A DNA stretch of 64,000 nt from Escherichia coli (GTDB lineage: Bacteria; Pseudomonadota; Gammaproteobacteria; Enterobacterales; Enterobacteriaceae), in the NCBI RefSeq assembly GCF_001677475.2, contig NZ_CP015229.1; one strand, given 5' to 3'. The position numbers were made by a program, and so were the translations under genes. Positions 58,205 to 59,018 of the stretch are shown in pieces (position 1 is the first letter of the stretch; every line of letters starts with the position of its first letter). Below the pieces are notes generated by a model that was not told the origin of the DNA, searched no databases, and was given only the letters and a program-made list of their open reading frames with translations.

Positions 58205-58427
58205 CTCTCTTTAAGCCATCTTAAATGACTCTGAGGTGTCTGTTAAACCCGTGGCGATTCAAAGATCGTCCAAGAGCGCACCAAATAACAGATGGTTATA
58301 GTCGTCGAAAACATCAGTCGCCTAAGTTCACCTTAGAACTAGTGCTGTTTTGTGTCCCACCCATGCCCCACTGCCCCTTCTTTTCCTTCCTGCCCTATAC
58401 TTTCAGTCTGACTGACTGGAGGCTTCT

Positions 58428-59018
58428 ATGTGTGGACGTTTTGCACAAGCCCAAACCCGTGAAGAATACCTGGCATACCTGGCCGATGAGGCTGATCGCG
58501 ATATCGCATACGACCCGGAGCCTATTGGCCGGTACAACGTGGCGCCCGGTACCAAAGTTCTGCTCCTGAACGAACGCGACGAGCAGCTGCACCTCGATCC
58601 GGTTCTGTGGTCGTACGCGCCCGGGTGGTGGGATAAGCAGCCGCTGATTAACGCGCGCGTCGAGACGGCGGCCACTAGCCGCATGTTCAAACCTCTCTGG
58701 CAGCATGGCCGGGCGATCTGTTTTGCAGATGGGTGGTTCGAATGGAAGAAGGAAGGCGAAAAGAAACAGCCCTACTTCATTATCAACCCGGTCACTGGTA
58801 AGCCGGTCTCGGGTAATAACAAAGGCAGTATGTTGCTCATCTGGCGACCATTCCCGCGGGCAAACTGCCACTTCGCAACAGTGGAGAGGGATGAGTTGAT
58901 GACATTCGGAGCGAAACTTCTCGCCCGGTGGGAGGCCGCATATGGATTAAAGTACACCTCTGGTAATCCATGTATAATTAGATACCAGAGGAGCTTTGAA
59001 CCAAAAAAATATTATTAA
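58428..59018 (+). pseudogene. Truncated paralog of yedK (SRAP N-terminal region fused to unrelated C-terminal sequence)
   Basis: 196-aa ORF; first ~117 aa closely match YedK, remainder unrelated; upstream ~45 bp also resembles the yedK upstream region. Confidence 0.65.

What the first reader, a model, noticed from the sequence alone, without database searches (positions are those of the whole stretch)
58290..59018. Second, truncated copy of yedK including its upstream region inside the islet
The ORF at 58428..59018 matches the first ~117 residues of YedK (54113..54781), including the Met-Cys start with the catalytic Cys2, then continues into unrelated sequence. About 45 bp upstream is also similar to the yedK upstream region. 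The conserved C-terminal half of the SRAP fold is lost, so the copy is probably non-functional as a peptidase. The duplication marks a past recombination or integration event involving yedK.
Basis: seen in the sequence. Interest (0 to 1): 0.5.

Follow-up and report, generated by a model that had tools for sequence, protein, structure and literature searches.

The report
Truncated phage yedK-like gene in prophage remnant
The "second yedK" is the front half of a phage-borne yedK-like gene, welded by a large deletion to the tail end of a phage DNA methylase gene inside a decayed prophage next to fliE: an ordinary gene remnant, not a duplication of the cell's own yedK.

Summary
Window 58394-58781 matches resident yedK (54079-54470) at 78% nucleotide identity, and the first 118 codons are kept, including Met-Cys2.

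The interpretation needs correcting. The copy is not a duplicate of the resident gene. It is 93% identical to an SRAP gene at the attL end of a prophage at the same site in E. coli 30EVA1, and 83-87% identical to SRAP genes of phage PHB10 and Gifsy-2.

The "unrelated" tail (58782-59018) is the last 78 codons of a phage N6-adenine methyltransferase. Intact fliE-integrated lambdoid prophages of Enterobacter hormaechei and Citrobacter portucalensis are collinear with the window starting exactly at 58780.

So ORF 58428..59018 is a chimera. One internal deletion, with 2 nt of microhomology, removed nearly the whole prophage.

The islet (57003-62274) lies between att cores TGCATGCYCATCAC, which sit inside the 3' end of fliE. 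It keeps integrase, excisionase and a HEPN-like cargo gene. Its P' arm carries a later IS3-family insertion with a 3-bp target duplication.

The upstream similarity (~34 nt) is a leader that travels with this SRAP cassette in many enterobacteria.

The chimera lacks His160 and half of the fold, and AlphaFold gives no confident fold. It is most likely a pseudogene. Interest is low.

The parts
54113..54781 (+). Resident full-length yedK (SRAP, 222 aa)
   Evidence: NF007413 at 489 bits over 1-222/222. Sits in yedE-yedF-yedK-yedL synteny, as in the other E. coli genomes examined.
56818..57002 (+). Older integrase 3'-end remnant (intG'-like) that forms the bacterial left arm of attL
   Evidence: 76-79% identical to the islet integrase 3' end at 62079-62274. 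Present at the unoccupied site of SCU-109. A matching remnant occurs in 4412 of 5426 complete E. coli genomes.
56989..57002 (.). attL core TGCATGCTCATCAC
   Evidence: Four-way comparison of attB (SCU-109), attP (phage CobraSix), attL and attR: the flanks switch partners exactly here.
57003..57032 (+). Phage P' arm, first 30 nt (cut by the IS)
   Evidence: With the IS removed, collinear with the CobraSix attP region and with the 30EVA1 prophage.
57033..58261 (-). IS3-family insertion sequence (two transposase ORFs), flanked by 3-bp target duplication AAG (57030-57032 and 58262-58264)
   Evidence: NF033516 at 338.7 bits against a cut-off of 160. 38-nt terminal inverted repeats. Target duplication read from sequence. 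Absent from otherwise 99.9% identical contigs L006 and L008.
58265..58371 (+). Phage P' arm, remainder, ending in the 19-mer TGTCCCACCCATGCCCCAC (58353-58371)
   Evidence: 93-96% identical to the 30EVA1 and HL15 prophage ends; homology to SRAP-less prophages stops at 58370. Also collinear with CobraSix.
58372..58427 (+). Conserved leader of the SRAP cassette (CTATACT, then a hairpin covering the ribosome-binding site)
   Evidence: Conserved from about 58373-58395 to the ATG in more than 30 loci with otherwise unrelated upstream DNA. Hairpin predicted at -11.1 kcal/mol.
58428..58781 (+). SRAP codons 1-118 (Cys2, Asn75 and Glu105 present)
   Evidence: 92.7% nucleotide identity to the 30EVA1 prophage SRAP up to 58781.
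58782..59018 (+). Last 78 codons plus stop of a phage N6-adenine methyltransferase gene, fused in frame
   Evidence: TIGR01712 positions 122-164/165, plus phrog_111 and phrog_6083. 81.5% nucleotide identity to CobraSix gene 41. Same C-terminal 78 aa (a few substitutions) as the 507-aa ORF of the E. hormaechei prophage. Collinearity with L095 and L096 starts at 58780.
59015..59833 (-). AT-rich HEPN-like cargo gene (272 aa ORF; called as 265 aa elsewhere)
   Evidence: PADLOC RTasHEPN at 3.8e-8. Pfam HEPN_RiboL-PSP at 0.0018, weak. Same position in intact prophages L095 and L096.
60016..60249 (-). Small phage ORF (77 aa; called as 70 aa elsewhere)
   Evidence: phrog_27283 at 5e-21.
60343..60591 (+). 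Small Cys-rich ORF (82 aa) upstream of the excisionase
   Evidence: An 82-aa ORF at the same position in L095 and L096, inside the stretch collinear with the window at 92-96%; CobraSix annotates a putative C4 zinc-finger ORF at the matching position, sequence similarity to it not tested. No family hit.
60641..60886 (+). Excisionase
   Evidence: phrog_539 at 1.9e-37. PF06806.
60932..62233 (+). Tyrosine integrase (433 aa, intact)
   Evidence: phrog_1 at 3.1e-78. PF12167 Arm-DNA-bind_2 plus PF00589. The xis-int stretch (60616-62274) is 88% nucleotide identical to that of CobraSix.
62261..62274 (.). attR core TGCATGCCCATCAC, inside the last codons of fliE
62254..62568 (-). fliE, whose 3' end is the bacterial attachment site
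   Evidence: PF02049. The translation ends ...EVMGMQV and overlaps the core.

Best explanation
ORF 58428..59018 is a chimeric gene remnant inside a decayed lambdoid prophage. A temperate phage with a tyrosine integrase integrated into the 3' end of fliE (core TGCATGCYCATCAC) and rebuilt the last fliE codons. Like many enterobacterial prophages, it carried an SRAP (yedK-like) cargo cassette directly after its P' arm, at the end far from the integrase. A single illegitimate deletion of nearly the whole prophage then joined codon 118 of that SRAP gene to codon 430 of the phage's 507-codon N6-adenine methyltransferase gene; its length was not measured and is presumably tens of kb. The two sides share only TT at the joint. 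What survives is attL, SRAP'::MTase', a HEPN-like gene, two small ORFs, xis, int and attR. In the lineage of this window an IS3-family element later inserted into the P' arm, 30 nt from the core. The att sites, the joint, the two parental contexts and the IS insertion are shown by the data. That it was one deletion, and that the fusion protein is inactive, are inferences. The inactivity inference rests on three points: no His160, none of the C-terminal half of the SRAP fold, and none of the methyltransferase catalytic region.
For: The left parent runs from the integrase remnant through the P' arm and SRAP leader to 58781. With the IS removed, this stretch is gap-free collinear with the prophage end at the same locus in E. 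coli 30EVA1 (95.4% over 950 nt). In that strain the SRAP gene is full length (223 aa) and is followed by gtrABC and tail genes.

The right parent is 58780-62700. It is collinear at 95.9% and 92.3% with the int-proximal ends of intact lambdoid prophages at fliE in E. hormaechei and C. portucalensis, and the match starts exactly at 58780. The parental 507-aa methyltransferase ORF ends with the same 78 aa, apart from a few substitutions.

The three-way alignment at the joint shows a 2-nt overlap. The att assignment rests on attB, attP, attL and attR.

SRAP is a recurrent phage cargo next to attP. PHB10 has int-attP-SRAP...umuDC. Gifsy-2 and a Klebsiella phage carry it near the record end. E. coli 210205630 has SRAP-umuCD-tail fibre. 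About 40 of 80 related loci have umuCD nearby. The cassette is a discrete 745-nt indel between two related prophages. The literature reports SRAP next to UmuCD and in temperate phages (PMC3765255) and a Salmonella prophage remnant with UmuC and YedK (PMC8049487).

The IS insertion is secondary: IS-free contigs are 99.9% identical and the insertion carries a 3-bp target duplication.

Loss of function is supported by SRAP model coverage of 1-127/222, at 266.7 bits against a cut-off of 349. His160 is needed for abasic-site ring opening (PMC9436759). AlphaFold gives the chimera pLDDT 34 and pTM 0.24, against 59 and 0.61 for the full-length phage SRAP with an alignment of equal depth.
Against: No single sequenced prophage was found that carries both this SRAP end and this methyltransferase-int end, so a single deletion in one parental prophage is inferred from two mosaic relatives. 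The fusion is in frame and the ORF is intact, which a pure pseudogene need not be. All copies found are at least 99.7% identical, so there is no test of selection for or against the ORF. The AlphaFold control itself reaches only moderate confidence, because the alignments are shallow. Expression was not tested; a simple consensus scan found no sigma-70-like promoter on the + strand upstream.
Confidence: 0.9

Rival explanations
1. A segment holding resident yedK and its upstream region was duplicated within this chromosome, or recombined during an integration event that involved yedK, and the copy was then truncated.
For: Two SRAP sequences lie 4.3 kb apart in the same orientation, and their similarity extends about 34 nt upstream of the start codon.
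Against: Identity to the resident gene is only 78%, against 93% to a prophage-borne SRAP at the same att site and 83-87% to phage genes. The copy follows a phage P' arm. The shared leader occurs with the cassette in many genera at unrelated sites. The integration site is the fliE 3' end, not yedK.
Confidence: 0.03
2. The in-frame SRAP(1-118)::methyltransferase(430-507) fusion is an expressed protein with a function of its own. It might be a slow abasic-site cross-linker using Cys2 and Glu105, or a dominant-negative or decoy for YedK or for phage functions.
For: The ORF is intact, in frame, and keeps the conserved leader and ribosome-binding site. The exact protein occurs in more than 20 sequencing samples. 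An N-terminal YedK peptide alone can still cross-link abasic DNA, although 100-1000 times more slowly (PMC9436759).
Against: An in-frame joint has a one-in-three chance. All copies are near-clonal, so their conservation says nothing about selection. There is no confident predicted fold. His160 and the C-terminal half of the SRAP domain are missing. The methyltransferase catalytic region lies upstream of the joint.
Confidence: 0.05
3. The 4-kb islet is a small self-transmissible or helper-mobilised integrative element (int, xis, att sites, HEPN cargo). It acquired the SRAP and methyltransferase fragments by recombination with resident prophages, rather than arising as a deletion derivative in place.
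For: The integrase, the excisionase and both att sites are intact in the IS-free copies. One metagenomic contig (L011) shows the islet with a different left flank.
Against: The L011 flank is low-GC DNA encoding GH116 and macroglobulin-domain genes, joined inside the SRAP ORF at 58506, and most likely reflects a chimeric assembly. Every other copy sits at the same E. coli locus at 99.7% identity or more. Both halves are collinear with ordinary prophages right up to the joint. No replication, packaging or transfer gene is present.
Confidence: 0.04

Closest known systems
E. coli YedK / human HMCES (SRAP domain, PF02586; abasic-site DNA-protein cross-linking)
   Same: Residues 1-118 align without gaps to the YedK crystal-structure sequences (E = 2e-73). 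Cys2, Asn75 and Glu105 are conserved.
   Different: Only about half of the domain is present. His160 and the whole C-terminal half are replaced by a methyltransferase tail. The score falls below the NCBIfam family cut-off, and no confident fold is predicted.
Prophage-borne SRAP cargo genes: Escherichia phage PHB10 SRAP, the Gifsy-2 STM1053 region, and the E. coli 30EVA1 prophage at fliE
   Same: Same gene lineage at 83-93% nucleotide identity, with the same conserved leader and the same position directly beside attP or attL.
   Different: Those examined in PHB10, 30EVA1 and E. coli 210205630 are full length (223-224 aa). Here only codons 1-118 survive.
Enterobacter phage CobraSix and related lambdoid prophages integrated at fliE (E. 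hormaechei and C. portucalensis loci)
   Same: The integrase and excisionase are 88-96% identical, the attP and P' arm match, and the methyltransferase 3' end and the HEPN-like, small-ORF module follow in the same order.
   Different: Those are complete phages or prophages with recombination, immunity, replication and structural genes. The window keeps only about 3.5 kb at the integrase end and about 0.5 kb at the far end.
Short prophage remnant with UmuC and YedK in monophasic Salmonella 4,[5],12:i:- (PMC8049487)
   Same: It is a few-kb leftover of a prophage that retains an SRAP cargo gene of the Gifsy-2 type.
   Different: It lies at a different locus (near hin), keeps UmuC and tail genes, and the paper does not describe its yedK-like gene as a fusion.

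Membership tests
SRAP / YedK (PF02586, NCBIfam NF007413) | N-terminal Met-Cys, with Cys2 as the cross-linking nucleophile | tested here: met
   The ORF starts MCGRF. Cys2 is nearly invariant and present in the window copy in alignment A1, and invariant among the full-length SRAPs in A2.
SRAP / YedK (PF02586, NCBIfam NF007413) | Active-site Asn75 and Glu105 | tested here: met
   Both are present at the aligned positions. Their roles are taken from PMC9436759.
SRAP / YedK (PF02586, NCBIfam NF007413) | Active-site His160 and the C-terminal half of the domain | tested here: not met
   Homology stops at residue 118. Residues 119-196 belong to a methyltransferase.
SRAP / YedK (PF02586, NCBIfam NF007413) | Full-length match above the curated family cut-off | tested here: not met
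   266.7 bits against a cut-off of 349, covering profile positions 1-127 of 222.
SRAP / YedK (PF02586, NCBIfam NF007413) | Compact SRAP fold | tested here: not met
   AlphaFold gives the chimera pLDDT 34 and pTM 0.24, against 59 and 0.61 for the full-length control. Both alignments are shallow, so this is supporting evidence only.
Phage N6-adenine DNA methyltransferase (TIGR01712, PF05869) | Complete methyltransferase domain, including the catalytic (D/N)PPY region | tested here: not met
   Only profile positions 122-164 of 165 are matched, at 24.3 bits against a cut-off of 97. In the parental 507-aa ORF the NPPY motif lies upstream of the joint.
Integrated temperate-phage remnant (cryptic prophage) | Tyrosine integrase and excisionase next to an attachment site | tested here: met
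   phrog_1 at 3.1e-78 and phrog_539 at 1.9e-37. PF00589 plus PF12167.
Integrated temperate-phage remnant (cryptic prophage) | attL and attR that recombine attB and attP flanks around a common core | tested here: met
   Four-way comparison with the unoccupied site of SCU-109 and the attP of CobraSix.
Integrated temperate-phage remnant (cryptic prophage) | Collinearity with complete phages, and absence of the structural and replication genes | tested here: met
   Collinear with L001 up to 58781 and with L095 and L096 from 58780. No structural genes lie between them.
IS3-family insertion sequence | Two-ORF IS3-family transposase, terminal inverted repeats and a 3-bp target duplication | tested here: met
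   NF033516 at 338.7 bits against a cut-off of 160. 38-nt inverted repeats. AAG duplication, with empty sites in L006 and L008.

The most novel reading that the evidence does not exclude
The most novel reading not excluded is that the chromosomal yedK of E. coli, the model bacterial SRAP/HMCES protein, shares its origin with this phage cassette through this very locus. One version is that yedK is the surviving attL-proximal SRAP cassette of a much older fliE-targeting prophage: yedK-yedL-yedN-intG' mirrors attL-SRAP-cargo-int-attR. The other version is that fliE-targeting phages captured the neighbouring host yedK. In favour: the layouts mirror each other, part of the leader is shared, and resident YedK is 76-90% identical to the mobile copies. 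Against: no P' arm remnant lies upstream of yedK, yedF-yedK-fliE synteny also exists in Franconibacter, and the resident gene lacks the cassette's leader hairpin.
Probability: 0.12. Interest if true: 0.4.

Novelty: new member of a known kind. Interest (0 to 1): 0.15.

Why it matters
It matters little beyond correct annotation. The ORF should be labelled as a fused pseudogene (phage SRAP 5' half :: phage methyltransferase 3' end) inside a cryptic prophage, not as a yedK paralogue or a duplication. The work has two useful by-products. It places the attachment site of a family of enterobacterial lambdoid phages inside the 3' end of fliE, which may account for the widespread intG remnant of E. coli. 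It also shows that SRAP, often together with umuDC, is a discrete cargo cassette carried next to attP.

Tried and rejected
The following led nowhere or were rejected.

1. Local duplication of yedK was rejected on identities and context.

2. I first read the last 25 codons as read-through past a lost methyltransferase stop, because CobraSix ends at TGA where the window has TAT. This was rejected: the E. hormaechei prophage has an intact 507-aa ORF with the same C-terminal tail.

3. Contig L011, with a different left flank, might have indicated mobility between species. It was rejected as a probable chimeric metagenome assembly: the match starts inside the ORF at 58506, and the flank is low-GC DNA with GH116 and macroglobulin-domain genes.

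4. The 19-mer direct repeat (56924 and 62185) was first taken as the att core. It was rejected once attB and attP showed that the crossover lies 65 nt further right.

5. I looked by eye for a LexA box in the leader and saw no CTGT-N8-ACAG.

6. RNAalifold on the leader alignment predicted no structure. Folding each leader alone did show the hairpin, so this remains only a side note.

7. A promoter scan found no consensus sigma-70 site upstream on the + strand.

8. A literature search for intG, fliE and prophage returned nothing relevant.

9. The joint was not found in any of 5426 complete RefSeq E. coli genomes. It does occur in a draft NCBI assembly, in metagenome contigs, and in more than 20 sequencing runs.

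Full report
**Observation**

ORF 58428..59018 (196 aa) begins MCGRFAQ. Its first 118 residues align to resident YedK (54113..54781) with BLASTP E = 3e-81. At the nucleotide level 58394-58784 aligns with 54079-54470 at 78% identity, and most differences fall at third codon positions. Homology stops at 58781, the last base of codon 118.

The upstream similarity covers about 34 nt (58394-58427), not 45. Taken alone it is only weakly above chance: 10 of 500 shuffles reach its score.

**What the copy is related to**

The backbone of the window is E. coli: amyA-yedF is 98.6-98.8% identical to complete genomes. No complete RefSeq E. coli genome, out of 5426, contains the whole 58262-59020 stretch.

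The best match is E. coli 30EVA1, at 92.9% over 58262-58781. There the sequence is a full-length 223-aa SRAP gene. It lies just after the integrase remnant that follows yedK and yedN, and it is followed by two small ORFs, gtrABC and phage tail genes. That places it as the first gene at the attL end of a prophage at this same locus.

With the IS removed, the window from 56600 to 58781 is gap-free collinear with 30EVA1 at 95.4%.

Other relatives are also phage-borne:
- Escherichia phage PHB10, 87%, arranged int-attP-SRAP...umuDC-tail fibre.
- Gifsy-2, 83%, unannotated, near sseI at the prophage end.
- A Klebsiella phage, with the gene at the end of the record.
- A prophage end in E. coli 210205630, arranged SRAP-hyp-umuC-umuD-tail fibre.

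The copy is therefore a phage-lineage SRAP, not a duplicate of the resident gene.

**What it runs into**

Residues 119-160 match the C-terminal end of phage N6-adenine methyltransferases (TIGR01712 positions 122-164 of 165; phrog_111; phrog_6083; PF05869). At the DNA level 58780-58941 is 81.5% identical to the 3' end of gene 41 of Enterobacter phage CobraSix. That gene lies in the early-left region, upstream of small ORFs, the excisionase and a DUF3596 integrase.

Intact lambdoid prophages integrated beside fliE in Enterobacter hormaechei (L095) and Citrobacter portucalensis (L096) carry recT, gam, repressor, O and P genes. They are collinear with the window from exactly 58780 to beyond fliE, at 95.9% and 92.3%. 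In L095 the parental gene is an intact 507-aa ORF whose last 78 residues match residues 119-196 of the window ORF, apart from a few substitutions.

A three-way alignment shows SRAP homology up to 58781 and methyltransferase homology from 58780. The joint therefore has 2 nt (TT) of microhomology and falls on a codon boundary.

**The islet and its attachment site**

I compared four sequences: the unoccupied site of E. coli SCU-109 (integrase remnant followed directly by fliE), the attP region of CobraSix, and the two junctions in the window. The flanks exchange partners at TGCATGC(T/C)CATCAC. This core lies at 56989-57002 (attL) and 62261-62274 (attR).

The core sits inside the last seven codons of fliE, and the phage supplies replacement codons. 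The 141-171-nt repeat (56818-57002 against 62079-62274, 76-79% identical) pairs an older integrase 3' remnant, found in 4412 of 5426 E. coli genomes, with the 3' end of the islet's own integrase.

The P' arm (57003-57032 plus 58265-58371..58383) is collinear with CobraSix. It is interrupted by a 1229-bp IS3-family element with 38-nt inverted repeats and a 3-bp AAG target duplication. Metagenome contigs L006 and L008 carry the same islet at 99.9% identity without the IS, so the IS insertion came later.

**SRAP as a cargo cassette**

The HL15 prophage has no SRAP and the 30EVA1 prophage has one. Comparing them shows the gene plus a 57-nt leader as a discrete 745-nt indel between the end of the P' arm and the next phage gene.

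A scan of one genome per species found 207 close relatives. Among the best 80 loci, about 40 have umuC and umuD a few kb away, and several genomes carry two copies. In more than 30 of these loci, similarity to the window begins only about 35-55 nt upstream of the start codon. This shows a conserved leader that moves with the gene, and it explains the similarity to the region upstream of resident yedK.

These contexts agree with published work. Aravind and colleagues reported SRAP next to UmuCD and in temperate phages (PMC3765255). A 5-kb prophage remnant with UmuC and YedK has been described in Salmonella (PMC8049487).

**Function**

The chimera keeps Cys2, Asn75 and Glu105. It lacks His160, which is needed for ring opening of the abasic site (PMC9436759), and it lacks the whole C-terminal half of the domain. 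It scores below the family cut-off and matches solved YedK chains only over chain residues 1-126. The methyltransferase part lacks the NPPY region.

AlphaFold gives pLDDT 34 and pTM 0.24 for the chimera. The full-length phage SRAP with an alignment of the same depth gives 59 and 0.61. This control is weak because both alignments are shallow, but it points the same way.

I conclude that the ORF is most likely a fused pseudogene left by one large internal deletion of the prophage. All copies found are near-clonal, so selection cannot be assessed. Expression is untested.

**Verdict**

The finding is real but ordinary. It is a cargo-gene stump in a cryptic prophage, not a duplication of yedK.

Noticed in passing
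window 62254-62274 and 56989-57002: The phage attachment core TGCATGCYCATCAC lies inside the last codons of fliE. Integration changes the FliE C-terminus from ...EVMSMQV (unoccupied site of SCU-109) to ...EVMGMQV. The widespread intG pseudogene of E. coli looks like the integrase stump of an earlier phage of this family.
   Followed up: partly
window 56924-56942, 58353-58371, 62185-62203: The 19-mer TGCCCCATCCATGCCCCAC occurs in both integrase 3' ends, and a 17/19 copy lies at the far end of the P' arm, which is also conserved in phage CobraSix. These may be arm-type binding sites for the integrase, which has an Arm-DNA-bind_2 domain.
   Followed up: partly
window 58396-58422; loci L015-L094 just upstream of position 10001: The leader of the mobile SRAP cassette has a near-invariant CTATACT followed by a hairpin (CTTTCAGTC/GACTGGAGG) that pairs the ribosome-binding site. 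The inner pairs change in a compensatory way between genera, and about 22 of 31 distinct leaders fold like this. Resident E. coli yedK does not. RNAalifold on the gappy alignment found nothing.
   Followed up: partly
window 59015-59833 (- strand): An AT-rich (34-37% GC) ORF of 272 aa contains an R-x4-H motif (RNAIAH). It gives a PADLOC RTasHEPN hit (3.8e-8) and a weak Pfam HEPN_RiboL-PSP hit. It occupies the same position in intact fliE prophages of Enterobacter and Citrobacter and may be a phage-borne defence or abortive-infection gene.
   Followed up: partly
window 55513-56631 (- strand): yedN (DUF5503, with leucine-rich repeats like the SspH2 and SlrP effectors) is an intact 372-aa ORF here. 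It is annotated as a frameshifted pseudogene in E. coli SCU-109, HL15 and 30EVA1.
   Followed up: no
window 54000-57002 and 62078-63000: The yedK-yedL-yedN-intG' segment is only 91.5% identical, and the fliE side 93.9% identical, to E. coli SCU-109. The adjacent amyA-yedF backbone is 98.6-98.8% identical to its best E. coli matches (SCU-109 not compared there). This suggests a recombination-prone or horizontally exchanged segment around the att site.
   Followed up: no
L095 10795-12318 (- strand): The parental phage methyltransferase is a 507-aa fusion protein. By eye, its N-terminal region (SFSGGRTSAY...) looks like a PAPS-reductase-type domain ahead of the Dam domain. The N-terminal domain was not tested against any profile.
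   Followed up: no
L037 6836-7096 and 10001-10666 (Citrobacter werkmanii): This is another case of SRAP fragments (residues 67-123 and 192-222) lying 3 kb upstream of an intact SRAP gene. Stumps of this cargo gene beside full copies therefore recur.
   Followed up: no
L011 1-8030: This metagenome contig joins the islet, from window position 58506 onward, to low-GC DNA encoding GH116 and macroglobulin-domain proteins. That creates a 180-aa variant ORF. It is most likely an assembly chimera rather than a second insertion site.
   Followed up: partly
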